Source: Bacteroidales bacterium
GTDB lineage: Bacteria; Bacteroidota; Bacteroidia; Bacteroidales; CG2-30-32-10
Direction: 5' to 3'
DNA length: 52,540 nt
Assembly (NCBI GenBank): GCA_038214085.1
Contig: JBBQSF010000002.1
Span: 1 to 52,540 of the forward strand
In this document: positions 40,671 through 52,488 of the stretch, piece after piece
Numbering within the stretch: position 1 is the first letter of the stretch
How the letters are laid out: every line of letters begins with the position of its first letter
Translations under genes and position numbers: made by a program
The notes under the pieces: model-generated
Seen by the model: only the letters and a program-made list of their open reading frames with translations
Told to the model about the DNA's origin: nothing
Database searches by the model: none

Positions 40671-41669
40671 ATGGCAAATATACTTCTTACACAAAAATGT
40701 GTCCGATCATGTCCATATTGTTTTGCGAAAAAGCACATGGCCGATGCGGAACCGGACGACACCCTTTCATGGGATAATTTAATTTATATCGCTGATTTAA
40801 TGGAACATTCCCGCGAAATGGGAGTGTCATTATTAGGTGGTGAACCAACATTGCATCCTGATTTTGTAAATATTGTTCTCTATATGCTTGAACGAAATTT
40901 TCATGTTAATGTGTTTACCAGCGGAATTATGAGCGAGAAAATGTTTTCAGAAATGGAACGAAATCTAAGCAATGTACCTTCTGATAGATTATCATTTGTA
41001 TGCAATGTAAACGATCCTGAAAAAACATCTTTTTCTGAACTTGAAACTGTTAGACGCTTTTTGAAAGCCTTTGGACATCTCAGCACAGCAGGATTTAATA
41101 TCTATAAACCGGATTTTAAATTTGATTTCCTTTTTCAGTACATCAATGAGTTTGGTCTACACAGACATTTACGCTTAGGTTTAGCACATCCAATTCCCGG
41201 AAAGCAAAACATGTATGTTCCCATTGATAAAATGCCTCAAATGGCAGAAAAACTCATTTCCTATTTGCCTCAGTTGGAAATGATGAAAGTTAAAGCTGGT
41301 TTCGACTGCGGTTTTCCTTTGTGTATTTTTACAGAAGAACAAATAGGAAGGCTTTACATGCACAACAAAGGACATTTAAGTTTTGGCTGCGGTCCCGCTG
41401 TGGATATTGGCCCTGATATGACAGTTTGGGGTTGTTTTCCATTATCAAATATTCACAAAAAATCCCTTTTTGATTTTGATTCAATGCAGGATATCCGCAA
41501 ATATTATATGGAAATACATCACAAAGTTAGGATTGAAGTTGCAGGTATTTATGAAAAATGTGATGAATGCGTTTATAGAGAAGAAGGTTTGTGTATGGGC
41601 GGCTGTCTGGCTCATTCATACAACCATTTTATAAAAGAACCCGAAGTACGACATAAAGGATTATTCTAA
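40671..41669 (+). CDS. Radical SAM enzyme with Cys-rich (SPASM/twitch-like) C-terminal domain
   Basis: The CxxxCxxC motif appears at the N-terminus (QKCVRSCPYCF), and the SAM-binding motif is LLGGEPTL. Eight C-terminal Cys are present, including FDCGFPLC, FGCGP, WGCFP and CDECVYREEGLCMGGC. Confidence 0.85.
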   Translation: MANILLTQKCVRSCPYCFAKKHMADAEPDDTLSWDNLIYIADLMEHSREMGVSLLGGEPTLHPDFVNIVLYMLERNFHVNVFTSGIMSEKMFSEMERNLSNVPSDRLSFVCNVNDPEKTSFSELETVRRFLKAFGHLSTAGFNIYKPDFKFDFLFQYINEFGLHRHLRLGLAHPIPGKQNMYVPIDKMPQMAEKLISYLPQLEMMKVKAGFDCGFPLCIFTEEQIGRLYMHNKGHLSFGCGPAVDIGPDMTVWGCFPLSNIHKKSLFDFDSMQDIRKYYMEIHHKVRIEVAGIYEKCDECVYREEGLCMGGCLAHSYNHFIKEPEVRHKGLF

Positions 41670-42538
41670 TGAGAGAACAAATATTAGTTTTTCAATACGA
41701 TCAGGGGTTACTCAGTAAGATTCATGAGAAGCCTATAATAGTAAAAGCCACTGATTACAGTCAATTGCATCAGATAATGGACGAAGCCAATCGGAACCAC
41801 AATCATGTACATTGTCTCGTTTTTAACCATAAAGGCGCTTTTTCAAATATTCCTTTGCAAAAGGAATGGAAAGGCATTCCTATAGCAATTTACGCAACAG
41901 ATTTTGGAAATTTTAAAGAGGTATTAAGTAAGATTCAACTCTTAAGAGAATTAAATTTGCGTGTTTTTCTTTCAACTGACGAAAAAGCCAATTTTACCAA
42001 TCTTCATATTCTGGCGTCACTGGGTGTAGATTGTGGGATTTATTTTGGTGAAAAACCGGTTGACTGGGAAAGTATGCATGATTTACTTTCGTATGCCATT
42101 TATAGCAAGGTTGGTCATGGCTCAATTGAACCATTTCATTATTTGGTTTCCGCATACCACCCGCATCGTTTTACCGAATTCAATACCATTTATTTTAATA
42201 ATCCTGAGCGCTATTTACATATCGACGAGGATGAAAATATTGCATTAAATGCTGTGGATTTAAAAGAGAAAAAATTTATTTCCAAAGGGCTGGAAAATAT
42301 TCAGAAGATCAGTGATGATGAAACTTACTATGATAAACTTTTTGAATGGCAAACCCATTTTCAGGATATTGCGGGCTGCTCAGTATGCCCAGCATGGAGA
42401 GTATGTCTTGGTAAATTTTCAGATCAGGTAAAAGACAATCCTGGTTGTACAAAGTTTTTTGAAGAATTAATGGATGGAGCTGATTTTTTTCTTGCTAGGC
42501 AAAATCAATCAAAAAATAAGGAATTATGGCAACCATAA
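41669..42538 (+). CDS. Accessory protein lacking CxxxCxxC but with a C-terminal CxxCx5C...C motif (pseudo-rSAM-like)
   Basis: It is 289 aa and translationally coupled on both sides: a TAATG overlap at 41669 and a 13-nt overlap with the next gene. There is no N-terminal radical SAM Cys triad. The C-terminus is AGCSVCPAWRVCLGKFSDQVKDNPGCTKFF. The function is unknown. Confidence 0.5.
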   Translation: MREQILVFQYDQGLLSKIHEKPIIVKATDYSQLHQIMDEANRNHNHVHCLVFNHKGAFSNIPLQKEWKGIPIAIYATDFGNFKEVLSKIQLLRELNLRVFLSTDEKANFTNLHILASLGVDCGIYFGEKPVDWESMHDLLSYAIYSKVGHGSIEPFHYLVSAYHPHRFTEFNTIYFNNPERYLHIDEDENIALNAVDLKEKKFISKGLENIQKISDDETYYDKLFEWQTHFQDIAGCSVCPAWRVCLGKFSDQVKDNPGCTKFFEELMDGADFFLARQNQSKNKELWQP

Positions 42539-43617
42539 TATTTAAGCCTACAGAAAAATGTAATTCCAATTGCATTTATTGCGATGTGGTAACCAGAAAA
42601 TCACCAAAAACAATGTCCTTGGATTTGCTGGAACATATTTTTAAAAATATCAATGAATATCTCCAAAAATTACCCCAGGAAAGAATTCAATTGATTTGGC
42701 ATGGTGGCGAACCATTACTTTTAGGAGAAGAATATTTTCTCAAAGCAATTGGTTTTCAGGAAAAGCACTGCCCCGAAACAAAAGACAGGATTGACCATGC
42801 CATGCAATCGAATCTGACTCTGGTAAAACAAAGTTACCTTGATATTTTTAAACGCATGGGAATGAACCAATTGGGCACAAGTTTTGAACCTTTACCCGGC
42901 ATGCGTGGTCCTGGAAAAAACCGCGATTCAAAAATTTATAATACTCAGTTTTTTAAAGGAGTTAGTCTTTTAGAAAGAAATAATTTCGGTTGGGGTTTTA
43001 TTTACGTTGTTACAAAAAGATCCTTAAAGAAACCTCTTGATATTTTTTATTTCTTGTCGAACATAAGGCTTAATGGCTGTTTTATGCTTAACCCTGTTCT
43101 GATTTACGGTGAGGACAAGGATAAAATTGCAATTACACCCGAGGAATATGCTGATTTTCTAGGTGCAATATTTCCTCATTGGTGGAAACACCGCGACCGC
43201 TTTCCAGATGTGAATCCTTTTAAGATGTTTACCGATAACATCATTGAGAAAAAACCTGTTCTTGGTTGTGCAGACACTGGTAAATGCGCCTACGGACATG
43301 TTTACATAGGGCCAAGTGGCGAAGCATCACAGTGTGGCAGAGCAGGCGACTGGGAAATAATTTCCTATGGCAACATCAAGGAACGATCACTTTTAGAAAT
43401 AATGAAAGATAAACAAAGGGAACAATTTCTTGAACGTGATGAAATTTTAAAAAATGGTGAATGTACCGATTGCAAATACTGGGAATTTTGTCATGGAGGT
43501 TGCCCTCTTGATTCCTACAGCAAACATAAGGATTTTGTGCATAAAACAGAGTGGTGTGAAGCCAAAAGGATTTTTCTAAAAAAATATTTCGAACCCATTA
43601 CCGGATTTACCGTATAA
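42526..43617 (+). CDS. Radical SAM/SPASM-domain maturase
   Basis: The CxxxCxxC motif is EKCNSNCIYCD and the SAM-binding motif WHGGEPLL. A classical SPASM C-terminus is present (GCADTGKCAYGHVYIGPSGEASQCGRAG ... GECTDCKYWEFCHGGCPLDS). Size and layout resemble AnSME-like peptide/protein maturases. Confidence 0.9.
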   Translation: MATIIFKPTEKCNSNCIYCDVVTRKSPKTMSLDLLEHIFKNINEYLQKLPQERIQLIWHGGEPLLLGEEYFLKAIGFQEKHCPETKDRIDHAMQSNLTLVKQSYLDIFKRMGMNQLGTSFEPLPGMRGPGKNRDSKIYNTQFFKGVSLLERNNFGWGFIYVVTKRSLKKPLDIFYFLSNIRLNGCFMLNPVLIYGEDKDKIAITPEEYADFLGAIFPHWWKHRDRFPDVNPFKMFTDNIIEKKPVLGCADTGKCAYGHVYIGPSGEASQCGRAGDWEIISYGNIKERSLLEIMKDKQREQFLERDEILKNGECTDCKYWEFCHGGCPLDSYSKHKDFVHKTEWCEAKRIFLKKYFEPITGFTV

Positions 43618-43626
43618 GAATAAATT

Positions 43627-44532
43627 ATGGCTAAAATTTCTGCAACAAAAACAAAATTGCCAAAAGCAAAAGAAACAAGCAAAAAAAAGGAGAAGGAACC
43701 TCTCTGGGTTAATCCAGTTGGTGGTTTTGGAGATATTCTAATGCTTTCAGGAGTTCTGAAGCTGGCTTATGATAAAGACCCATCACAAAAGTATAATCTG
43801 ATAAGGCGCACCAAATACTCGCATTTATTGCAAGGTCATCCTGCAATAGATAAAATTGGATTTCCGACCAAAAACGACAAAATATTGGATACAACTTACT
43901 GGTCGGACGATGTTTATGAAAAAGGAGAAGAGAGAGCCTATCAGTTGCTGGCAAAATCATTTGGATTGAAAACACCAGTGGATGAGAAATTATTTGTAGC
44001 TGGAGATTTGGAAATAGATCCTGTTTTGGATAAGCTAATTCCTTGGAAGAAAAAGAATGTAATTATTTCACCTACATCAGATTCGCCAAGAAAAATGATG
44101 CATCCGATGATATGGCATAATATAGTTGAATTCCTTGTGCAGCAAGGGTTTCTTGTTATACAAGTAGGCGTATCAAGGGATATACACATAAAAGGCGCGT
44201 ATTCCTTAATAAACTTAACTACTCCAAGACAATTGATTTCATTAGTTAAAAAATGTAATTTTGTTGTTAGTTCTGATAATTTCATCATGCATGCTGCTCA
44301 TTTGGTAGAAACTCCTGCGGTAGTTGTTTGGGGTCCAACAAAAGCAAATGTATATGGTTATGCTGAACAAGTGCATATTCAGGCTCCGCTTGATCATTGT
44401 AATTTAAAAAATGAATGCCTCGGACCAAAATATGCGCAAAATTATGCTACAATGTGTCCCCTTGGTCAAGAGCATTGTATTAGTAAAATTAGAATTGAAG
44501 ATATTATTCATCATATAAATAACTTATTGTAA
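43627..44532 (+). CDS. Glycosyltransferase family 9 (heptosyltransferase-like)
   Basis: The N-terminal GGFGDILMLSGVLKLAY and the C-terminal VSSDNFIMHAAHLVETPAVVVWGPT resemble the two conserved GT9 blocks. It is 301 aa. Confidence 0.7.
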   Translation: MAKISATKTKLPKAKETSKKKEKEPLWVNPVGGFGDILMLSGVLKLAYDKDPSQKYNLIRRTKYSHLLQGHPAIDKIGFPTKNDKILDTTYWSDDVYEKGEERAYQLLAKSFGLKTPVDEKLFVAGDLEIDPVLDKLIPWKKKNVIISPTSDSPRKMMHPMIWHNIVEFLVQQGFLVIQVGVSRDIHIKGAYSLINLTTPRQLISLVKKCNFVVSSDNFIMHAAHLVETPAVVVWGPTKANVYGYAEQVHIQAPLDHCNLKNECLGPKYAQNYATMCPLGQEHCISKIRIEDIIHHINNLL

Positions 44533-44550: not shown

Positions 44551-44715
44551 ATGGATCAAAATCTTGAAAACATGGACCCCAAAAGCCTTGAGCAACAAAA
44601 TCAAGGAAATGATCCCAAGTTATCCAGAAGAGATGCTCTTAAACGTGCAGCCAAACAAACTTTGGGTCTTGCAGGACTGTTTACCGTACTTCCAGCATTT
44701 TCTGCTGTTGCGGGA
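44551..44715 (+). other. Predicted twin-arginine (Tat) signal peptide
   Basis: The RR motif is at 44623-44643 (tcc aga aga gat gct ctt aaa). The h-region and AVA-G cleavage site end at about residue 55. Confidence 0.6.
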
Positions 44716-45129
44716 TTGACAAATAACGAAGAAAAACTTCCGGCTTATTACGACTATTATAGTTACTATTCTAACTACTATAGTTACTATTCTAACTATT
44801 ACAGTTATAGTTATTCGAGTTATAGTTACTACAGCTACAGCTATTACTACAACTATTACAGTTATAGCTATTACTACAACTATTACAGTTATAGTTATTC
44901 AAGTTATAGTTACTATAGCTACAGCAACTATCAAAATTACTATAGCTACAGCTATTACTACAACTACTATAGCTACAGCTATTACTACAACTATTATAGT
45001 TACAGTTATTACTACAACTATTATAGCTACAGCTATTACTACAACTACTATAGCTACAGTTATTACTACAACTATTACAGCTACAGCTATTATAGCTATT
45101 ACAGCCAGAACCAGAATCAACTTATTTAA
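44551..45129 (+). CDS. Tat-signal-bearing Tyr/Ser/Asn repeat protein, the putative substrate of the rSAM cassette
   Basis: Residues 25-31 (SRRDALK) match the twin-arginine consensus S/T-R-R-x-F-L-K. A hydrophobic h-region (TLGLAGLFTVLPAF) and an AxA site (SAVA|G) follow. Residues 66-185 contain 73 Tyr, 34 Ser, 11 Asn, 1 Asp and 1 Gln by hand count. The repeat units differ only at synonymous sites, so the ORF is under protein-level selection. Confidence 0.78.
   Translation: MDQNLENMDPKSLEQQNQGNDPKLSRRDALKRAAKQTLGLAGLFTVLPAFSAVAGLTNNEEKLPAYYDYYSYYSNYYSYYSNYYSYSYSSYSYYSYSYYYNYYSYSYYYNYYSYSYSSYSYYSYSNYQNYYSYSYYYNYYSYSYYYNYYSYSYYYNYYSYSYYYNYYSYSYYYNYYSYSYYSYYSQNQNQLI
44746..45105 (+). repeat. In-frame 27-bp tandem repeat array encoding YYSYSYYYN, with an 84-bp higher-order unit
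   Basis: There are seven perfect YYSYSYYYN units, five of them consecutive at 44938-45072. Two 28-aa higher-order units read YYSYSYSSYSYYSYS(YYYN/NYQN)YYSYSYYYN. Unit-to-unit DNA differences are TAC/TAT and AGC/AGT only. Confidence 0.92.
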
Positions 45130-45148: not shown

Positions 45149-45182
45149 GAAATTCCGGTGTAAAACCCGGAATTTCTTTTTT
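45149..45182 (+). terminator. Rho-independent terminator closing the rSAM / Tyr-repeat operon
   Basis: A perfect 10-bp stem (gaaattccgg / ccggaatttc) has an 8-nt loop and is followed by tttttt. Confidence 0.78.
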
Positions 45183-45194
45183 AAATTTTTATAT

Positions 45195-45362
45195 ATGTAT
45201 TTATTGTTTTTTAATCGTTTAGGTGTAACTGAAATTATATTAATTTTGGTAATTATACTTTTACTTTTTGGCGGGAAAAAAATCCCTGAATTAATGCGGG
45301 GCTTAGGTAAAGGGGTTAAAGAATTTAAAGATGCAAAAAGCATCGAAAACGAAACAAAATAA
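45195..45362 (+). CDS. tatA: Twin-arginine translocase subunit TatA/E (short paralogue, 55 aa)
   Basis: It is absent from the ORF track, probably because it is under 60 aa. My hand translation is [55 protein letters not shown]. It shows the canonical TatA TM helix, hinge and amphipathic helix. Confidence 0.8.
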
Positions 45363-45381: not shown

Positions 45382-45600
45382 ATGCAAAGAATTGGTGTTA
45401 CAGAAATCATTTTAATACTTCTTATAGTATTGTTGTTATTTGGAGGGAAAAAAATCCCTGAACTTATGAAAGGTCTTGGAAGAGGAGTTAAGGAATTTAA
45501 AGACGCCTCCAAAACAGAGACCAAAACTGGAGACGTTAAACCTACCGATGACAAAGAAATTGACAGTAAACCAATTGTTGAAACAGAAGAAAAAAAATAG
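45382..45600 (+). CDS. tatA: Twin-arginine translocase subunit TatA/E (72 aa)
   Basis: The sequence is [44 protein letters not shown], followed by an acidic/Thr-rich tail. Confidence 0.9.
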
Positions 45601-47476: not shown

Positions 47477-49288
47477 TTATTCTCCTGCGGAAACCGCTTC
47501 ACTTTTTAGAGATAACCTTACTCTTTTCTGGTTTTCTGAAATTACTTCTGCAATATCTTTCACTACAATTCCTGTTTTTCCCTGAAAAGTCTTTTTACAT
47601 AGCGGACAAGAAGTAACAAGCAACTCCGGATTCGATTCGGTTAAATGCGATATCTCATGGCTGGTGATTTGATTGCGGTTTTCCTGCCCCAAAACCAAAC
47701 TCCCTAGGCTTCCACCACAACAAAGGGTTTTGTTTTTTTCATAATCGAGATTTTGTAGTTCGAGCGCCATTGATAAAAGTTCTCTGGGTTCTTTGTATAT
47801 TCCTGAGCCTCGTCCAAGTTCGCAGGGGTCATGGTAAACAGCTGATATTTCCTCTTTATTTAATGTTATTTTTCCACTTTCAACCAACCTGAGCAAATAC
47901 TGTGTGTGATGCAAAACCTCAATGTCCAGATTATAATCTTCTTTAAAAATTCTATAACATATCGGACAAGATGTAACCAATAATTTGGCTTTGGAATCAG
48001 CAATTAATAATTTGTTTTTTGTAGTAAGTTCTTCTGCTTTTGAAAAATCACCGGCAACCATCGAAGGTCTGCCACAACAAATACTTCCATCCTTGTCGAT
48101 AAATGAATAATCTACACCTGCCTCGTTGAAATTTTTTTCCATTGCCCTTGGAATAGAGGGCGTAAGGTGCGACATACAACCTGCAAAATATGCCACTTCG
48201 CTTGTTTTTGCCTTTGCTGGGATTACATAATCAAGGGTATTGCCACTAACTTTAAAATATTTTGCCCTTTCGCCAATTCTTATGTTGTTTATATCAATTC
48301 CTACGGGACAAACTTCCATACAACGGCCACACAACAAGCAATCAAATGTTGGTGTTTCCTGTGACTCCTTGTTTCTTATTGATTGCAGAAAGTAAACTGC
48401 CTGAGTTTGGGTCACCCCAATGGTTTTTGAGAGTTTGCACTTTCCAATACAGATTCCACATCGGGGGCAAGCATTTATCTCAATTTCAGAAAATATCGAC
48501 AATCGTTTTTCAGAACTTATTCCAAAATTTTTCAAAAATATTAAAACGATCTCCGTTGGAATATGCATGTATCGTGAAAAAGGCAAAGAAATAAAGAACA
48601 AACCGAGCGATAAAGAATATGCCCACCAAATAGGATAGGAGAGTATTTCTATAGGTAAAAAGGATGCAAAAAATTGCCCTGAGTTATTTGTTAAAAACCC
48701 ACCATTTTGAAAAGTACCAGCGGTAAAGCTTTCGGCCAAATAACGCAATGGAAAAATAAACCACAAAGTATAAAGCGCTAGCTTATCAAAAGGCTTATAT
48801 ACTGTTGTACTGCACATTCCAAATAGTTTTTTATACATTCTTTTGGTAAATGCAAGTGTAATACCGGCCAGTACAAATAAAAGCAGAAAATCCATGATAA
48901 ACTGGAATTCGTTTGCCCAAGGAAAAGAGGAAATATTATGATTGAAAAATTTAAAGAATATTGGTTCGTAAGGCATGCTGAAGGCCCTGTGACTGTGAAT
49001 TTTAGATTCGATAGTTCCCCCGATAATCAGTAAAAACCAGCCGAATGCAATACTCATGTGCATGTAGCCTAGTACCGGATTAACTTTAAATACTTTTCGG
49101 TGTAAAAGACTTTCGAAAAAGACTTCCTTAATGGCTTTAAAAAGCTTAAAGCTAAATATTCCTTTCAGAATTTTGATTTTATCTGTTTTTTTAAAACGAA
49201 TGAGCCATGAAAAATAGCGATAGATTAGCATTGCAAAAAGCAATACCATTCCTATAGAAAAGGGAAGAACAAAAGGATCGTAATTCAT
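47477..49288 (-). CDS. Membrane-anchored HdrD/DsrK-like Fe-S protein (polytopic N-domain + 2x[4Fe-4S] + two CCG domains)
   Basis: The N-terminal ~250 aa carry ~6 TM segments and conserved-looking His residues. Ferredoxin motifs CPRCGICIGKC and CLLCGRCMEVCP follow. The two CCG domains are (GCMSH...CCGRP...SCPICY) and (DPCELG...CCGGS...SCPLCK). Confidence 0.8.
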   Translation of the reverse strand: MNYDPFVLPFSIGMVLLFAMLIYRYFSWLIRFKKTDKIKILKGIFSFKLFKAIKEVFFESLLHRKVFKVNPVLGYMHMSIAFGWFLLIIGGTIESKIHSHRAFSMPYEPIFFKFFNHNISSFPWANEFQFIMDFLLLFVLAGITLAFTKRMYKKLFGMCSTTVYKPFDKLALYTLWFIFPLRYLAESFTAGTFQNGGFLTNNSGQFFASFLPIEILSYPIWWAYSLSLGLFFISLPFSRYMHIPTEIVLIFLKNFGISSEKRLSIFSEIEINACPRCGICIGKCKLSKTIGVTQTQAVYFLQSIRNKESQETPTFDCLLCGRCMEVCPVGIDINNIRIGERAKYFKVSGNTLDYVIPAKAKTSEVAYFAGCMSHLTPSIPRAMEKNFNEAGVDYSFIDKDGSICCGRPSMVAGDFSKAEELTTKNKLLIADSKAKLLVTSCPICYRIFKEDYNLDIEVLHHTQYLLRLVESGKITLNKEEISAVYHDPCELGRGSGIYKEPRELLSMALELQNLDYEKNKTLCCGGSLGSLVLGQENRNQITSHEISHLTESNPELLVTSCPLCKKTFQGKTGIVVKDIAEVISENQKRVRLSLKSEAVSAGE

Positions 49289-49620
49289 AATGCTGATTTT
49301 TCGAAGTATTCTCTGATTTTAAGAATCATGTTTCTGGTATTTACGCCTCTTGGGCAAGCTAAATAGCACTTTCCGCAGAACATACATTTTGAAATTTCTT
49401 CTTTCAAACCGTCGATTTCTCCTCTGCGAAGCAAGGTTTGAAGTTTTCGAATATTGAAATCGGTAAAATTTGCTGCACTGCAAGTGGCGGTACATGTTCC
49501 ACAGCCAATACAGGTTTTAAACGAAGGTTCCTTTTCGCAAACATAGGCAGCTATTTTTAGATCGTTCTTATCGAGATCGATTTGCCTGTCCTTACTGAGT
49601 TTGTATCCGAAGTTGATCAT
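49285..49620 (-). CDS. 2x[4Fe-4S] ferredoxin-like protein (HdrC2-like)
   Basis: It is 111 aa with CIGCGTCTATC and CMFCGKCYLACP. It overlaps both neighbours by 4 nt. Confidence 0.75.
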   Translation of the reverse strand: MINFGYKLSKDRQIDLDKNDLKIAAYVCEKEPSFKTCIGCGTCTATCSAANFTDFNIRKLQTLLRRGEIDGLKEEISKCMFCGKCYLACPRGVNTRNMILKIREYFEKSAL

Positions 49621-50672
49621 GCCTTTTTAGGAATTCTGTTTTCAATAGTATAACCTTCGAGATAACTGGCAGTGAGTAATGCTGCAGCACGGGCATCGGC
49701 AAACACATTGTTAATGGTTCTGGGCGCCATGCAACATCCTGCAAAAAACACCCCAGGAACATTTGAAACCGTAGTCATGGTATGTTGATCCTGACATTTA
49801 AGGAAGCCGTTTACGCCAAAGTTCATTCCCAGCATGGTTCCTATTTTTTTTGTTCCTTCCGAAGGAATCATTCCTACCATTAGAACCAACAAGTCAACAC
49901 TCATACGTAAGGGGCGGCCTGCCAACGTATCTTCTACTTTAACCAGTATGGTGCCATCTATGTTTTCGCATGCTTCAGAAAGTCTGCCACGAATAAAATT
50001 GACGCCATGTTTTTCTTGCGATTGTTTGTAAAGCGATTCAAAATGCATCCCAAACATGCGAAGATCCATGTAAAAGCAATACACTTCTGACTCGGGAATC
50101 ATTTCTTTTATTTCAATGGCTTGTTTTACTGCGGTTACACAGCAAACTTTGGAACAATAAACATTTCCGACTTTTTCGTCGCGCGAGCCAACACAATGTA
50201 CAAATCCTACCTTTTTAGGCACACGACCATCGGTGGTTGTTATTTTTTCTCCTGTCAAAAATTTTTCTTCAAGTTCGGCCGAAGTAATTACATTATCGTA
50301 AATTCCATAGCCATATTCTTCTTTTTTCCGGGCATCAAATAAATCGTAACCTGTTGTAACAACCACTGAATCTGCTTCAAATACTCTATTATCGGCAAGT
50401 TTTATAATAAAACCATTATCAACTTTTGTAGCATCTGTAATATCTGCATTGTATTCCACTTTTACTTTTGCAAGGTCAATTCCTTTATTTAGAAAATCTA
50501 CTACTTCGCTTCCCAGACTCATAGTTGGAAATAATTTCTCCCATTTCAGCAATCGACCGCCAAGTTTATTGGTTTTTTCCATTAGGGTTACCTCATAACC
50601 CAAGGATGTGAGATAAGTGGAAACTTCCATTCCTGCAATTCCACCTCCAATTACAATTACTTTTTTTGCCAT
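49617..50672 (-). CDS. HdrA-like FAD-dependent oxidoreductase (short, sHdrA-sized)
   Basis: The FAD motif is VIVIGGGIAGMEVS. The HdrA cluster motif is CVGSRDEKVGNVYCSKVCC, i.e. CxGxRDx(6-8)CSxxCC. It is 351 aa. Confidence 0.82.
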   Translation of the reverse strand: MAKKVIVIGGGIAGMEVSTYLTSLGYEVTLMEKTNKLGGRLLKWEKLFPTMSLGSEVVDFLNKGIDLAKVKVEYNADITDATKVDNGFIIKLADNRVFEADSVVVTTGYDLFDARKKEEYGYGIYDNVITSAELEEKFLTGEKITTTDGRVPKKVGFVHCVGSRDEKVGNVYCSKVCCVTAVKQAIEIKEMIPESEVYCFYMDLRMFGMHFESLYKQSQEKHGVNFIRGRLSEACENIDGTILVKVEDTLAGRPLRMSVDLLVLMVGMIPSEGTKKIGTMLGMNFGVNGFLKCQDQHTMTTVSNVPGVFFAGCCMAPRTINNVFADARAAALLTASYLEGYTIENRIPKKA

Positions 50673-50711
50673 GTGCTTTTTGCCATTACTTTATAATAAT
50701 ACAGAAGTATT

Positions 50712-51824
50712 TTAAATAGAATTAGAACTTTCAGAGATTTTTGGAATTCCTAAATTTTTACCATTTACTCCTTGATACTTTTCTTCAGCCTTATAAACTA
50801 CTCCCATTTTGTCCAAAACAGGTTCGCAATCAATCTGATGCATTTGCAAACCCAAATCCCAAGGATTATATCCAAGAACAAGACCTGCAACTTCTTCGTA
50901 AGTAAAAACAGGAATTCCCTGGCCGTCAGAACCATATTTTTTACCTTCCATTTCGGCTATGGCATATTGCCATTTATCCAAAAACATAGGGCAGCCCGGA
51001 CAGTTGGTAATAATCATATCGGGTTTGTAAGGCTCCATGGATTCAAACTTTTTATGAGAACACGACATGGAATAGCCGCGGTTTGCCTGAACAAGATATT
51101 GCCTGAATCCAAAGCCACAGCAATGGCGGCGTTCGGGATAATCAATAATCTGTCCGCCCCAATCTTCAACCATTCCAATAAGAACATAAGGGTATTCGGC
51201 ACCACCAATACCTTTGTTGGGGAACATTTTAGAATAATGACAGCCAATATGTTCAACAACTCTTAATGGTTCGCCAGTATTTTTATTTACTAATTTATAT
51301 TTGGCTCTTGAAGCAATCTCTTTACGAAATTTAAAAATAATATCGCTGGCATGTGCTATGTTTTCGGGTATTTCAAATTCACGCCCGGTAGCCTCTTTGA
51401 GGTATTTCCTAATTTGTGCTTCCTTTTCGGGAAAATGATGCCAGGTGTCAAGCACTTCAGTATAAATACCAAATGAAGTGATGCAAGATGGAACAAGATT
51501 TTTATATCCCGATTCTGTCATTAATGCAAATTGTCGCGCAACTACAGTCATCATTGTGTCAATAGGGACAACATCTCCGTGATATCCAATGCCTGTACAG
51601 GTTGTATGACAAGGGTTTTCGTGAATATCTTTGCCTAATTCCTCTCGCATTATGCGTAAAAATGTGGTTTCTGAACCCGGGAAAAAATTTTGGCGCACAC
51701 AGCTTCTCACATAAAAGTAATGGTCATCAGCTATTTCTTTCTGATATTCTTTCCAGATATTATGTTTGCCTTCAATTTTCATCTCTGGTATGTTTATTAT
51801 TATTTTGTGTGTAAATGTGTTCAA
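50712..51824 (-). CDS. HdrB-like CCG-domain protein
   Basis: CCG-domain signatures RRHCCGFG and NCPGCPMF are present. The ORF-track start overlaps hdrC1 by 53 nt. An alternative ATG at 51782 (MKIEGKHNIW) would overlap by only 11 nt. Confidence 0.8.
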   Translation of the reverse strand: MNTFTHKIIINIPEMKIEGKHNIWKEYQKEIADDHYFYVRSCVRQNFFPGSETTFLRIMREELGKDIHENPCHTTCTGIGYHGDVVPIDTMMTVVARQFALMTESGYKNLVPSCITSFGIYTEVLDTWHHFPEKEAQIRKYLKEATGREFEIPENIAHASDIIFKFRKEIASRAKYKLVNKNTGEPLRVVEHIGCHYSKMFPNKGIGGAEYPYVLIGMVEDWGGQIIDYPERRHCCGFGFRQYLVQANRGYSMSCSHKKFESMEPYKPDMIITNCPGCPMFLDKWQYAIAEMEGKKYGSDGQGIPVFTYEEVAGLVLGYNPWDLGLQMHQIDCEPVLDKMGVVYKAEEKYQGVNGKNLGIPKISESSNSI

Positions 51825-52488
51825 AATATTCGTTGTCGAGGCCTTCTCCGAATTTTAGTCCCATTTCCTCCGCTTTTTTTCTTGAAAAGTTTTCAATTTT
51901 TTCAAAACGGTCATTTCCTCCTGTCACTTCAAATATTTTGCGAATTTCATTCATTGAATTTTCTGGAATTTTACGTAGTATTCCTGGACCATCGCCTTGA
52001 TAATTTGCGCCAAGGCGTTCAAACAAATCGTGCCAGTTTTCCTGTATCCAATCCCAAACTGGACCTTGTTCTGGATGTAAAGATGTTCCAACCCCATGTA
52101 AGTAAAGACAATAGCCATGTGCTAAAATCCAGTCGCCTACCGTACGTTTAACAGCAAGTTGCTGGCGTCCTTTTTCCGATTCTGTAAAATAACCCAATTC
52201 CTGCGACAATGAACGCAAGGCCATTATAATAAGCCCTGGCGCATTACCGCGCGGACAACGGGTTTTGCACGACATGCATTCGCCGCAATACCAAATAGTT
52301 TCACTTTTTAGCAATTCAATAATTGAGTCATCGTTGCGAGATTGTATCGTGTCCACTATATTACGGGGATCGTAATTATAAAATTCGGCAGCAGCGCAAA
52401 TAGCAGTGCAGGTTCCGCAGTTGATGCAGGCTTTGAGGCCTTCTTCAAGCCGCACATCCTCAGCCAGTTTATTAAAAAGTGAACCCAT
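51772..52488 (-). CDS. HdrC-like 2x[4Fe-4S] protein (HdrC1-like)
   Basis: It is 238 aa with CINCGTCTAICAAAE and CGECMSCKTRCPRGN. It is the first gene of the operon. Confidence 0.8.
   Translation of the reverse strand: MGSLFNKLAEDVRLEEGLKACINCGTCTAICAAAEFYNYDPRNIVDTIQSRNDDSIIELLKSETIWYCGECMSCKTRCPRGNAPGLIIMALRSLSQELGYFTESEKGRQQLAVKRTVGDWILAHGYCLYLHGVGTSLHPEQGPVWDWIQENWHDLFERLGANYQGDGPGILRKIPENSMNEIRKIFEVTGGNDRFEKIENFSRKKAEEMGLKFGEGLDNEYFEHIYTQNNNKHTRDEN

What the first reader, a model, noticed from the sequence alone, without database searches (positions are those of the whole stretch)
44746..45105. 120-residue Tyr/Ser/Asn block kept identical at the protein level only
By hand count, residues 66-185 are 73 Tyr, 34 Ser, 11 Asn, 1 Asp and 1 Gln, which is about 60 percent Tyr. 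There are seven perfect YYSYSYYYN units, five of them consecutive. There are also two 28-aa higher-order units, YYSYSYSSYSYYSYS(YYYN/NYQN)YYSYSYYYN.

The five consecutive 27-bp units differ only by TAC/TAT and AGC/AGT changes. For example, unit 3 is tat tat agt tac agt tat tac tac aac and unit 1 is tac tat agc tac agc tat tac tac aac. The repeat is therefore old and kept by selection on the peptide. It is not a recent slippage artefact.

The sequence is densely tiled with Y-x-S, Y-x-Y and Y-Y-N triplets. These fit the aromatic-X-X motif logic used by three-residue-cyclophane rSAM/SPASM enzymes, including F-x-S-type precursors. There is no Cys, Lys, Gly or Pro. The composition resembles eukaryotic [S/G]Y[S/G] low-complexity domains and Tyr-cross-linked structural proteins. 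The product could be a cross-linked periplasmic or envelope material, or a redox-active polymer.
Basis: partly seen in the sequence, partly recalled or inferred. Interest (0 to 1): 0.8.

Follow-up and report, generated by a model that had tools for sequence, protein, structure and literature searches.

The report
Poly-tyrosine substrate of radical-SAM cassette
The tyrosine/serine block is a real gene for an export-signal-bearing repeat protein that always sits next to a rare, undescribed set of radical-SAM peptide-modifying enzymes, so it is very probably the raw material for a new kind of heavily modified secreted peptide polymer.

Summary
ORF 44551-45129 (+) encodes 192 aa, and residues 66-185 are 73 Tyr, 34 Ser, 11 Asn, 1 Asp and 1 Gln, with seven YYSYSYYYN units that differ only at synonymous third positions.

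It is a real gene. It has a conserved N-terminal twin-arginine-type leader (RRDALKR plus a hydrophobic stretch). It belongs to a family of about 300 protein clusters whose cores carry Tyr every third residue, as Y-x-[S/N/D/Y].

In all 30 related loci the enzyme genes lie in the same order: radical SAM, a Cys-rich pseudo-radical-SAM, then an anSME-like radical SAM/SPASM. A GT9 glycosyltransferase usually follows. A Tyr-rich leader-bearing ORF lies beside the enzymes wherever the contig allows. These loci come from uncultured Bacteroidota, Nitrospirota, Spirochaetota, Acidobacteriota and Desulfobacterota.

The SPASM enzyme scores best against cyclophane/cross-link synthases (DynA, DarE, AmcB, GrrM, YhhB, XyeB, FxsB), but below every curated cut-off.

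Best reading: a protein-sized RiPP-like substrate that is cross-linked at Y-x-x triplets, perhaps glycosylated, and then exported, probably by Tat (two tatA genes follow it). The chemistry, export route and function are inferred, not shown. I found no description of the system. The window's lineage carries hyper-expanded cores.

The parts
40671..41669 (+). Radical SAM enzyme 1 (332 aa). It has an N-terminal CxxxCxxC and a C-terminal SPASM-like Cys cluster (CDECx7Cx3C).
   Evidence: Pfam Radical_SAM 1.4e-12. Only generic rSAM matches in NCBIfam, all far below cut-offs. Weak PDB hits to PqqE and SkfB. It is the first gene of the cassette in 30/30 related loci.
41669..42538 (+). Pseudo-radical-SAM protein (289 aa). 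It has no CxxxCxxC and four invariant Cys (C237, C240, C246, C260). It is the signature gene of the system.
   Evidence: No Pfam or NCBIfam hit. Only 18 clusters among 5.8 billion proteins. AF2 pLDDT is 86; the best PDB fold matches are the rSAM enzymes AbmM (prob 0.99, TM 0.39) and PqqE (TM 0.45), with BtrN also listed, and no match reaches E <= 0.001.
42526..43617 (+). Radical SAM/SPASM enzyme (363 aa), anSME-like architecture. It is the candidate cross-linking maturase.
   Evidence: NCBIfam: DynA 164 bits, anSME 143, DarE 134, AmcB 110, GrrM/OscB 98, YhhB 87, XyeB 69, FxsB 60, all below cut-offs. It aligns end to end with anSME 4K37 (E 8e-14), but the residue I recall as anSME's catalytic Asp277 aligns to Gly. 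It also hits the ChlB rSAM domain 9gm3 (4.7e-10). C12, C16 and C19 plus 7 SPASM Cys are invariant.
43627..44532 (+). GT9-family (heptosyltransferase-like) glycosyltransferase (301 aa) with an invariant 4-Cys/His motif near the C-terminus.
   Evidence: Pfam PF01075 at 30.9 bits versus gathering 22. LPS heptosyltransferase equivalogs are far below cut-off. PDB matches cover only the sugar-nucleotide-binding motif of GT9 enzymes. Invariant C258, C264, C277, C284 and H283. Present in 25/30 loci.
44551..45129 (+). Precursor/substrate gene (192 aa). Polar N-region (res 1-25), RRDALKR (res 26-32, nt 44626-44646), hydrophobic stretch T37-A54 ending in AVA, 11-residue linker, 120-residue Y/S/N block, and N/Q tail.
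   Evidence: AF2 predicts only helix 26-40; the block has pLDDT 30-46.
44551..44712 (+). Leader / twin-arginine-type signal region (res 1-54).
   Evidence: R26, R27, A29, L30 and R32 are invariant in 17 sequences. TIGR01409 scores 13 bits versus cut-off 16.7 for the window protein, and 9 of 17 relatives match it at E<=1, best 5.6e-4. Against L001 the leader has 16 synonymous versus 6 non-synonymous codon differences.
44746..45105 (+). The reported Tyr/Ser/Asn block (res 66-185).
   Evidence: 73Y/34S/11N/1D/1Q. 36 non-overlapping Y-x-x triplets cover 108 of 120 residues. Codon use differs from background: TAC 51% versus 31%, AAC 10/11, AGY 30/34.
45149..45176 (+). Intrinsic-terminator-like hairpin with a T-run, directly after the precursor stop codon.
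   Evidence: 10-bp stem with 5 GC pairs, followed by TTTTTT.
45195..45362 (+). TatA/E paralog 1 (55 aa).
   Evidence: TIGR01411 66.4 bits (cut-off 53.9); Pfam TatA_B_E 2e-16.
45382..45600 (+). TatA/E paralog 2 (72 aa).
   Evidence: TIGR01411 64.7 bits; Pfam 1.9e-17. A single TatA sits at the same place in L016 and among the precursor genes of the P0005 contig.

Best explanation
ORF 44551-45129 encodes the ribosomally made substrate of the four enzyme genes immediately upstream: radical SAM, pseudo-radical-SAM, anSME-like radical SAM/SPASM, and a GT9 glycosyltransferase.

Proposed pathway (chemistry, export route and function are inferred, not shown):
1. The precursor is translated with an N-terminal leader that carries RRDALKR and a mildly hydrophobic stretch.
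2. In the cytoplasm the radical SAM enzymes work along the unstructured Tyr/Ser/Asn block. They act on the Y-x-[S/N/D/Y] triplets that tile it. The most likely reaction joins the Tyr ring to the beta-carbon two residues downstream (triceptide-type three-residue cyclophanes) or makes a related C-C/C-O cross-link. The pseudo-radical-SAM probably serves as a scaffold or leader-binding partner.
3. The GT9 enzyme probably adds sugars to Ser or Tyr hydroxyls.
4. The now rigid, bulky product is exported, most likely by the Tat pathway, and the signal is removed at about A54/G55. Two tatA genes follow the precursor.

The window's lineage has expanded a core that is normally 30-60 residues long into a 120-residue poly-Tyr array.

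What is shown: the gene is real, it is under peptide-level selection, it belongs to a family, and it co-occurs tightly with the cassette.
For: 1. Real gene.
- The leader is conserved while synonymous sites have diverged (16 synonymous versus 6 non-synonymous codon differences against L001). Repeat units differ 8:2 synonymous to non-synonymous.
- Orthologs L015, L016 and L001 keep the frame despite different unit types and numbers.
- L023 achieves the same composition with TCN rather than AGY Ser codons.

2. Family.
- 57 relatives were found by the word-indexed profile search.
- An exhaustive HMMER search found 303 representative clusters at E<=1e-3.
- 116 of 124 new members carry the RR-x-A-L-K-R-type motif.

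3. Period-3 Tyr.
- Observed/expected Tyr-Tyr spacing is 1.99 at lag 3 and 0.65 at lag 2.
- X3 is S 41%, N 21%, D 11% and Y 10%.

4. Co-occurrence.
- Five of five precursor look-ups landed beside the cassette.
- Three of three look-ups with the 289-aa protein found adjacent Tyr-rich ORFs.
- Of 17 further species-representative loci, 15 have a Tyr-rich leader-bearing ORF. The other two have no precursor-side flank: L019 lies on a 4.9-kb contig and the stored L020 locus ends just after the SPASM gene.
- Enzyme order is identical in 30/30 loci across at least 5 phyla, and the precursor can lie upstream (L002, L012) or downstream.

5. Enzyme type. The best NCBIfam matches of the SPASM enzyme are cross-link/cyclophane synthases. 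Triceptides are defined by aromatic-to-C-beta links on aromatic-X2-X3 motifs (PMC11499958).

6. Operon. The junctions overlap or lie 9-18 nt apart, and a strong terminator follows the precursor.

7. Export. Tat-like motif. TatA lies adjacent in the window, in L016 and in the P0005 contig. Many relatives have a lipobox-like Cys after the hydrophobic stretch (21 of 124), which fits a true signal peptide.

8. The block has no predicted fold, as expected for an enzyme substrate.
Against: - There is no expression, peptide or mass-spectrometry evidence for anything in this system.
- The SPASM enzyme is below every curated cut-off (best 164 bits versus 450 for DynA), so the type of bond is a guess.
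- The window's own leader is below the TIGR01409 cut-off (13 versus 16.7 bits).
- The most divergent loci have KR, KK or CR instead of RR (L021, L026, L029, L030). The conserved motif may therefore be an enzyme-recognition sequence rather than, or as well as, a Tat signal.
- TatA is adjacent only in the giant-core sublineage, and no tatC is in the window.
- GT9 is absent from two complete loci (L026, L030).
- A close relative's precursor is truncated by an IS element, so the product is dispensable at least there.
Confidence: 0.7

Rival explanations
1. Same substrate-enzyme relationship, but different chemistry. The anSME-like enzyme might oxidise Ser to formylglycine-type aldehydes. Alternatively, the two rSAM enzymes might make ether (C-O) or biaryl Tyr-Tyr links, epimerise residues, or otherwise modify them, rather than form three-residue Tyr-to-C-beta cyclophanes.
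For: The SPASM enzyme aligns over its full length with anSME (E 8e-14), and TIGR03942 is its second-best family (143 bits). Ser is the commonest X2 and X3 residue. DarE and DynA, the other top matches, make ether, C-C and C-N links of differing ring size (names; chemistry from PMC9055067 and PMC11499958 as listed). A sulfatase and a phosphodiesterase follow the cassette in L002.
Against: The residue I recall as anSME's catalytic Asp277 aligns to Gly (CGR versus CDF). The block has no Pro or Arg, so it lacks the sulfatase C/S-x-P/A-x-R motif. The strict period-3 placement of Tyr fits a three-residue motif better than isolated Ser oxidation. The sulfatase neighbour occurs in one lineage only.
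Confidence: 0.2
2. The Tyr-rich protein is an unmodified, secreted low-complexity structural or fibre protein, and its position next to the enzymes is incidental or merely regulatory.
For: The block is predicted disordered. Some family members are fused to a C-terminal PF13884 intramolecular-chaperone domain of the type found on trimeric fibres (P0065; a similar tail in L024). Cell-wall enzymes (M23 and SLT/LysM) flank the window locus.
Against: Co-occurrence with the cassette holds in unrelated genomic contexts and in at least five phyla, with the precursor on either side. The M23 and SLT neighbours are confined to the window's own lineage (the window, L016, L008/L009 and the P0005 contig). 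The 289-aa signature protein is extremely rare (18 clusters), and every related locus with enough flank also has a Tyr-rich ORF.
Confidence: 0.07
3. It is a multi-core precursor. The array is cut, for example after each Asn, into many copies of a small modified nonapeptide, as in multi-core RiPPs.
For: The 9-residue unit ends regularly in Asn. Tandem multi-core precursors are known in other RiPP classes (my own knowledge).
Against: No protease is conserved in the cassette. Most family members have short, irregular, non-repeating cores. Unit length and sequence differ between close orthologs.
Confidence: 0.08
4. The block is a non-coding tandem repeat, or the opposite-strand ORF (44899-45120) is the real product.
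For: A 73-aa ORF is open on the minus strand.
Against: The minus-strand frame is open automatically, because reverse complements of TAY, AGY and AAY are RTA, RCT and RTT. It has no conserved start or leader. The + frame has a conserved leader, synonymous-biased divergence, in-frame length variation among orthologs, the same strand as the operon, and a terminator.
Confidence: 0.02

Closest known systems
Triceptides: three-residue cyclophane RiPPs made by rSAM/SPASM 3-CyFE enzymes (XyeB, YhhB, GrrM/OscB, FxsB, HaaB, HtkB, ChlB)
   Same: Cores are built from aromatic-X2-X3 motifs, often several per precursor. The maturase is an rSAM/SPASM enzyme related to anSME. The window enzyme's NCBIfam hit list is dominated by these families plus DarE and DynA. 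It also hits the rSAM domain of ChlB, which acts on a YDR motif (PMC11499958).
   Different: No curated model reaches its cut-off. The precursor is protein-sized, with up to 36 tiled motifs and 61% Tyr. The leader looks like a Tat or lipoprotein signal peptide rather than a cleaved cytoplasmic leader. The cassette adds a second rSAM, a pseudo-rSAM and a GT9 glycosyltransferase. The hosts are uncultured Bacteroidota, Nitrospirota and others.
Darobactin / dynobactin maturases DarE and DynA
   Same: DynA is the best-scoring curated family for the SPASM enzyme (164 bits) and DarE is third (134 bits). These single rSAM/SPASM enzymes install cross-links between aromatic side chains and neighbouring residues.
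   Different: Scores are far below cut-offs (450 and 650). Daro/dynobactin cores are 7-10 residues and Trp-based, with no signal peptide and no repeats.
Anaerobic sulfatase-maturating enzyme (anSME)
   Same: Collinear over the full length, with all three Fe-S cluster motifs. Like anSME, it would act in the cytoplasm on a protein destined for export.
   Different: The residue I recall as anSME's catalytic Asp277 is replaced by Gly. The substrate has no sulfatase motif. The score is 143 bits versus a cut-off of 349.
His-Xaa-Ser repeat system (HxsABCD) and poly-cyclopropylglycine TVGG-repeat peptides (TvgA/TvgB, PMC9062424)
   Same: A precursor made of many short repeats, with the repeats in TvgA modified by a radical SAM enzyme; that Hxs has paired rSAM genes plus an accessory protein of unknown role is from my own knowledge.
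   Different: The repeat motif and residues differ. HxsB scores only 74.5 bits versus a cut-off of 370. Those systems have no Tat-type leader and no glycosyltransferase.
Cytoplasmic O-heptosylation of repeat proteins by GT9-like BAHT enzymes (Aah/TibC acting on AIDA-I/TibA)
   Same: A GT9-like enzyme encoded next to a Ser-rich repeat protein that is later exported. This is a resemblance recalled from my own knowledge and serves only as a lead.
   Different: No sequence match to TibC structures in the PDB. The acceptor and the sugar are unknown here.

Membership tests
Triceptide / 3-CyFE RiPP system | Precursor core contains aromatic-X2-X3 motifs | tested here: met
   36 non-overlapping Y-x-x triplets cover 108/120 residues. 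Family-wide lag-3 Tyr enrichment is 1.99-fold. X3 is S/N/D/Y in 83% of triplets.
Triceptide / 3-CyFE RiPP system | Maturase belongs to a characterised cyclophane-synthase family (passes a curated model) | tested here: not met
   Bits versus cut-off: AmcB 110/425, GrrM/OscB 98/310, YhhB 87/445, XyeB 69/450, FxsB 60/370, DynA 164/450, DarE 134/650. The enzyme is related to these families but outside every defined one.
Triceptide / 3-CyFE RiPP system | Aromatic carbon to C-beta cross-link on residue 3 (loss of 2 Da per motif) | not testable with these tools
   Needs co-expression, LC-MS/MS and NMR.
Anaerobic sulfatase-maturating enzyme | Score at or above the TIGR03942 cut-off, and catalytic Asp277 (anSMEcpe numbering) | tested here: not met
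   143 bits versus 349. The alignment to 4K37 places Gly opposite D277. The role of D277 is from my own knowledge of the anSME structure papers.
Anaerobic sulfatase-maturating enzyme | Substrate carries C/S-x-P/A-x-R | tested here: not met
   The 120-residue block has no Pro, Arg, Ala or Cys.
Tat (twin-arginine) exported proteins | S/T-R-R-x-F-L-K-like motif, then a mildly hydrophobic h-region and an A-x-A site, passing a curated signal model | tested here: inconclusive
   S25-R-R-D-A-L-K31, h-region T37-A54, and AVA at 52-54 (read from the sequence). TIGR01409 scores 13 bits versus 16.7 for the window protein. 9 of 17 relatives match at E<=1. Divergent loci have KR, KK or CR.
Tat (twin-arginine) exported proteins | Tat machinery present, and export depends on it | tested here: inconclusive
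   Two TatA genes pass TIGR01411 directly downstream, and TatA is also adjacent in L016 and the P0005 contig. No tatC is among the window ORFs scanned against Pfam. Dependence on Tat cannot be tested here.
Glycosyltransferase family 9 | Passes the Pfam PF01075 gathering threshold | tested here: met
   30.9 bits versus 22. The DxGxMH-like motif region aligns to the GT9 structures 3TOV and 1PSW.
LPS heptosyltransferase I/II (WaaC/WaaF equivalogs) | Passes the NCBIfam equivalog cut-off | tested here: not met
   TIGR02195 scores 27.9 versus 134.6, and TIGR02193 scores 16.7 versus 185.3.
His-Xaa-Ser (Hxs) system | HxsB/HxsC equivalog rSAM pair and a His-x-Ser repeat precursor | tested here: not met
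   HxsB TIGR03978 scores 74.5 versus 370 for the SPASM enzyme and 22 bits for rSAM1. The block contains no His.

The most novel reading that the evidence does not exclude
This would be the founding example of a protein-sized, Tat-exported RiPP. A 120-residue poly-tyrosine chain would be converted in the cytoplasm into a ladder of dozens of contiguous three-residue cyclophanes (and glycosylated), then moved folded and rigid through Tat to become a new kind of covalently stiffened periplasmic or envelope polymer in anaerobic Bacteroidota and other uncultured phyla. The pseudo-radical-SAM would act as a novel leader/signal-binding chaperone that couples modification to export.
Probability: 0.3. 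Interest if true: 0.88.

Novelty: new variant of a known kind. Interest (0 to 1): 0.72.

Why it matters
If the reading is right, this is an uncharacterised class of radical-SAM-modified ribosomal products, and it has three unusual properties.

1. **Size and composition.** The cores are protein-sized and up to about 60% tyrosine. They would be by far the densest arrays of aromatic-x-x motifs known, and a natural test of how processive a cross-linking rSAM enzyme can be.
2. **Leader.** The leader looks like a Tat or lipoprotein export signal rather than a disposable cytoplasmic leader. That links RiPP-type maturation to folded-protein export.
3. **Enzyme set.** Two rSAM/SPASM enzymes, a Cys-rich pseudo-rSAM and a metal-site-bearing GT9 enzyme have no described counterpart.

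The system is confined to uncultured lineages. It has about 300 precursor clusters, and its signature gene forms only 18 clusters among 5.8 billion proteins. Sequence mining is therefore the only way it would be found. Short family members of 80-100 aa give tractable constructs for heterologous reconstitution.

Tried and rejected
- **Curated families for the precursor.** The Pfam and NCBIfam scans reached no curated cut-off; the only matches were weak ones (E of about 6e-4 or worse), such as TIGR01409 in 9 of 17 relatives and QcrA_N in 4 of 53.
- **Literature.** Searches combined tyrosine-rich, radical SAM, SPASM, twin-arginine, RiPP, heptosyltransferase, triceptide and Bacteroidetes/Bacteroidota. 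None returned a paper describing this system.
- **Strain-level repeat variants.** A degenerate DNA pattern for two consecutive YYSYSYYYN units found nothing in metagenome contigs. The single-unit pattern gave six unrelated chance hits. No repeat-number comparison of the exact unit was possible, so orthologs with other units were used instead.
- **Origin of the pseudo-rSAM.** Profile-profile comparison with the two rSAM families gave only a 37-column match over the CxxC..W..C motif (probability 5%) and nothing else. A recent paralog origin is not supported; the rSAM-like fold comes from the structure search only.
- **GT9 and protein O-heptosyltransferases.** Sequence and profile searches of the PDB found only LPS-type GT9 enzymes, and only over the nucleotide-sugar motif. 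TibC was not found.
- **AF2 of the precursor.** No fold was predicted for the block, so no structure search was run on it.
- **Rejected: anSME function.** The residue I recall as anSME's catalytic Asp is missing and the substrate has no sulfatase motif.
- **Rejected: functional link to neighbouring cell-wall genes.** The M23 peptidase and the MltD-like gene are absent from most other loci.
- **Rejected: antisense ORF.** It is an automatic by-product of the codon set.
Full report
**1. The observation**

Window 44551-45129 (+) is a 192-aa ORF.
- Residues 66-185 (nt 44746-45105) are 73 Tyr, 34 Ser, 11 Asn, 1 Asp and 1 Gln.
- There are seven perfect YYSYSYYYN units, at residues 93, 102, 130, 139, 148, 157 and 166. 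Five are consecutive.
- There are two 28-residue higher-order units, at residues 83-110 and 111-138.
- Tandem Repeats Finder sees periods of 27, 54 and 81 nt at only 77-79% matches.

The seven perfect units occur as six DNA versions, and all five variable sites are third codon positions. Selecting identical peptides and then finding only synonymous differences is partly circular, so I used two fairer counts.
- The two 84-nt higher-order units differ at 8 synonymous and 2 non-synonymous codons.
- The leader differs from its ortholog in L001 at 16 synonymous and 6 non-synonymous codons out of 33.

Tyr makes up 4.6% of 29 other ORFs in the window. Codon use in the block also departs from background: TAC 51% versus 31%, AAC 10/11 versus 35%, and Ser AGY 30/34 versus 31%.

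**2. Anatomy of the protein**

Read from the sequence and from alignments A1 and A4, the protein has these parts:
- a polar N-region (res 1-25);
- S25-R-R-D-A-L-K-R32;
- a Gly/Ala/Leu-rich hydrophobic stretch, T37-A54, ending in A-V-A;
- an 11-residue linker;
- the 120-residue block;
- an SQNQNQLI tail.

R26, R27, A29, L30 and R32 are invariant in 17 homologs. AF2 with a 53-sequence alignment predicts only a helix at residues 26-40 (pLDDT 73-80). The block gets pLDDT 30-46, meaning no fold is predicted.

The window leader scores 13 bits against the Tat-signal model TIGR01409, whose cut-off is 16.7. Nine of 17 relatives match that model at E<=1, with a best value of 5.6e-4.

**3. Genomic setting**

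The ORF is the last of five co-directional genes. Their junctions overlap or lie 9-18 nt apart.
- **40671-41669.** A radical SAM enzyme with CxxxCxxC and a SPASM-like C-terminal Cys cluster.
- **41669-42538.** A 289-aa protein with no Pfam or NCBIfam match.
- **42526-43617.** A radical SAM/SPASM enzyme.
- **43627-44532.** A GT9-family glycosyltransferase (PF01075, 30.9 bits versus gathering 22).
- **44551-45129.** The Tyr-rich ORF itself.

A strong hairpin with a T-run (45149-45176) follows the stop codon. Two TatA/E genes come next, at 45195-45362 and 45382-45600, and both pass TIGR01411. The rest of the window is ordinary Bacteroidota chromosome, including a T9SS-tailed M1 peptidase, histidine kinases, NadA, MnmG and an Hdr-like cluster. 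It has no tatC among the ORFs scanned against Pfam.

**4. The enzymes**

*SPASM enzyme.* Its best curated matches are DynA (164 bits), anSME (143), DarE (134), AmcB (110), TIGR04083 (108), DarW (104), GrrM/OscB (98), YhhB (87), HxsB (75), XyeB (69) and FxsB (60). All are far below their cut-offs.
- It aligns end to end with anSME 4K37 (E 8e-14) and with the rSAM domain of the triceptide synthase ChlB (9gm3, 4.7e-10).
- In that alignment, the residue I recall as anSME's catalytic Asp277 faces Gly (CGR versus CDF).
- The block lacks Pro and Arg, so it has no sulfatase motif.
- The enzyme therefore belongs to the anSME/cyclophane-synthase radiation but to no defined family.

*289-aa protein.* It has four invariant Cys (C237-x2-C-x5-C-x13-C260) and no CxxxCxxC.
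- Its AF2 model (pLDDT 86) matches the rSAM enzymes AbmM (probability 0.99) and PqqE (TM 0.45) best, with BtrN also listed; no match reaches E <= 0.001.
- I call it a pseudo-radical-SAM.
- Profile comparison with the two true rSAM families shows only the CxxC..W..C motif in common.

*GT9-like protein.* It carries an invariant Cys258/264/277/284 plus His283 motif. It matches solved GT9 enzymes only around the sugar-nucleotide motif.

**5. Related sequences**

*Protein family.*
- The protein alone found ten relatives, each with the same leader and a Tyr/Ser-rich tail.
- A profile search found 57.
- An exhaustive HMMER search of 1.84 billion representatives found 303 at E<=1e-3 and 66 at E<=1e-10. 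Most are 70-145 aa.
- 116 of 124 new members carry the RR-x-A-L-K-R-type motif, and 21 have a lipobox-like Cys after the hydrophobic stretch.

*Core pattern.* The cores share one feature, which is Tyr every third residue.
- The mean observed/expected Tyr-Tyr spacing is 1.99 at lag 3, about 1.5 at lags 6 and 9, and 0.65 at lag 2.
- In 1701 Y-a-b-Y triplets from 178 members, the third residue is S 41%, N 21%, D 11% and Y 10%. The second residue is more varied.
- In the window block, 36 non-overlapping Y-x-x triplets cover 108 of 120 residues.

**6. Co-occurrence with the cassette**

- The 289-aa protein is very rare, with 18 clusters at 90% identity among 5.8 billion proteins.
- Every look-up that started from a precursor (P0005, P0009, P0042, P0066, P0051) landed beside the cassette.
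- Every look-up that started from the 289-aa protein (P0021, P0019, P0028) found adjacent Tyr-rich leader-bearing ORFs.
- A profile scan of 185,579 species-representative genomes returned 18 loci, all from metagenome-assembled genomes. Most are Bacteroidota/Bacteroidales. The rest are two Spirochaetota, two Nitrospirae, a 'delta proteobacterium', a Thermodesulfobacteriota and an Acidobacteriota.
- By tblastn, the order rSAM1, pseudo-rSAM, SPASM is identical in 30/30 loci.
- GT9 is present in 25. Three of the five exceptions are cut soon after the SPASM gene, by a contig end (L019, L029) or by the stored range (L020); L026 and L030 truly lack it.
- Fifteen of the 17 new loci have a Tyr-rich precursor-like ORF. 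In the other two, L019 and L020, the sequence held ends at or just after the cassette.
- The precursor lies downstream of the cassette in most loci but upstream in L002, L012 and others. Flanking genes are otherwise unrelated. This is the signature of a self-contained substrate-plus-enzymes module.

**7. The window's sublineage**

The close relatives are L001, L015, L016 and the P0005 contig. Their enzymes are 65-77% identical to the window's, except the pseudo-rSAM at 46-49%. Their cores are similarly huge: 77-80 Tyr in L015 and L016, and at least 106 in the truncated L001.

Their dominant units differ from the window's YYSYSYYYN:
- YYSYYYYYN in L001 and L016;
- YYSYYSNYY in L018;
- a 14-residue NYYNYYNYSYSDYY unit in the two tandem precursors of L023. 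These use TCN rather than AGY for Ser.

All variation is in frame. So composition and the Y-x-x register are selected, while the arrays themselves turn over by concerted evolution.

TatA lies next to the precursor in the window (two copies) and in L016 (one copy, in the same synteny with the MltD-like and Hdr-like genes). It also lies among the candidate precursor genes of the P0005 contig. It does not lie next to the precursor in the other lineages.

**8. Mechanism**

Shown:
- a real, selected gene;
- a leader resembling a Tat or lipoprotein signal;
- an unstructured core tiled with Y-x-[S/N/D/Y];
- obligatory linkage to two rSAM/SPASM-type enzymes, a pseudo-rSAM and, usually, a GT9 enzyme.

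Inferred:
- The rSAM enzymes act in the cytoplasm on the triplets. The most economical chemistry is the triceptide reaction, which links an aromatic carbon to C-beta of residue 3 on aromatic-X2-X3 motifs (PMC11499958). Ether, C-N or other rSAM chemistry cannot be excluded.
- The GT9 enzyme glycosylates Ser or Tyr.
- The modified, rigid product leaves by Tat, the route that accepts folded or cross-linked cargo.

Caveat: the most divergent loci have KR, KK or CR in place of RR. The conserved x-A-L-K-R helix may therefore be, or may also be, the enzymes' recognition element.

I put 0.7 on the substrate-of-cassette model as a whole. I put roughly 0.4 on triceptide-type links specifically and roughly 0.55 on Tat export.

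**9. Comparison with known systems and novelty**

- The closest kind is the triceptide/cyclophane rSAM-RiPPs. The motif logic and the enzyme superfamily match.
- Membership in any defined family fails on curated scores, and the product bond is untested.
- anSME membership fails on score, on the catalytic residue and on the substrate motif.
- Hxs and TVGG-repeat peptides are analogous, because a repeat precursor is modified unit by unit, but they are not homologous at family level.

I found no curated model for the precursor or the 289-aa protein. Source annotations are 'hypothetical protein' apart from one generic JGI 'radical SAM protein with 4Fe4S-binding SPASM domain' label on P0015. No paper in six full-text searches describes the system.

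I rate it a new variant of a known kind. It is an undescribed rSAM-modified precursor family with a signal-peptide-type leader, an unusual enzyme set and, in this lineage, protein-sized poly-Tyr cores. There is no expression or chemical evidence, and all hosts are uncultured.

Noticed in passing
window 45195-45362 and 45382-45600: Two tandem TatA/E paralogs (55 and 72 aa) lie directly after the precursor's terminator, with no tatC among the window ORFs scanned. The syntenic locus L016 has a single TatA at the same place, so the window carries a local tatA duplication.
   Followed up: partly
L008 7001-7219, L009 6036-6254, L010 52-270 with transposase at L010 481-1758 (-): In the closest relatives, the precursor gene (P0042, 72 aa, seen on 7 contigs) keeps the leader but loses homology right after the signal region. 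In L010 it runs into an IS element carrying a DDE_Tnp_1 transposase. The Tyr-rich core has been replaced or deleted there, so the product seems dispensable, or the repeat attracts insertions.
   Followed up: partly
P0006-P0009, P0033, P0036, P0038, P0044; L002 8001-8375 and L002 16363-16375: One subfamily of precursors ends in a conserved PG(A/G)TCFIDTLxKKKK tail. This tail weakly matches NCBIfam NF041763 'CFI-box putative sorting motif'. The L002 locus also carries an Rce1-like (CAAX-protease family) gene, and a sulfatase and a phosphodiesterase lie right after the cassette. Other subfamilies end in YYNYYVVSW or in a two-Cys QYCSG...YYYSYYCS motif.
   Followed up: no
P0065 (240 aa) and L024 8595-9350: Some family members fuse the leader and Tyr/Ser core to a C-terminal domain recorded as PF13884, the intramolecular chaperone/auto-processing domain of trimeric fibre proteins. 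This hints that at least some products assemble into fibres.
   Followed up: no
L023 4264-4680 and 4753-5277: A MAG labelled Draconibacterium orientale has two tandem giant precursors built from a 14-residue NYYNYYNYSYSDYY unit. They use TCN rather than AGY Ser codons. This looks like an independent expansion to the same composition.
   Followed up: partly
window 43627-44532 (GT9-like), residues C258, C264, C277, H283, C284: The GT9-like protein has an invariant Cys4/His cluster in its C-terminal part in all eight orthologs aligned. This suggests a structural or redox metal site not found in the LPS heptosyltransferases it matches.
   Followed up: no
L021 5609-5944, L026 5346-5726, L029 5577-5987, L030 9020-9502: In the most divergent cassettes the leader's twin arginine is CR, KK or KR, while the downstream A-[LIMF]-K-R is kept. 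L026 and L030 also lack the GT9 gene. This raises doubt that the motif is only a Tat signal.
   Followed up: partly
L011 7383-11816 versus L012 7645-11477: The same Nitrospirota precursor (P0066) sits next to an intact cassette in L012. In L011 the cassette is broken into seven short gene calls. This is either pseudogenisation or frameshift errors in that assembly.
   Followed up: no
L007 4593-5687 and L028 8931-10108: Some loci insert an extra gene between the SPASM enzyme and the GT9 gene. In L007 it is a third radical SAM enzyme of 364 aa.
   Followed up: no
window 47477-52488 (-): A heterodisulfide-reductase-like cluster (CCG-domain, Fer4 and FAD/NAD oxidoreductase proteins) lies downstream. 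At least its first genes are conserved in the same position in L016 and the P0005 contig. This suggests a strictly anaerobic host and shows that the cassette sits at a fixed chromosomal site in this lineage.
   Followed up: no
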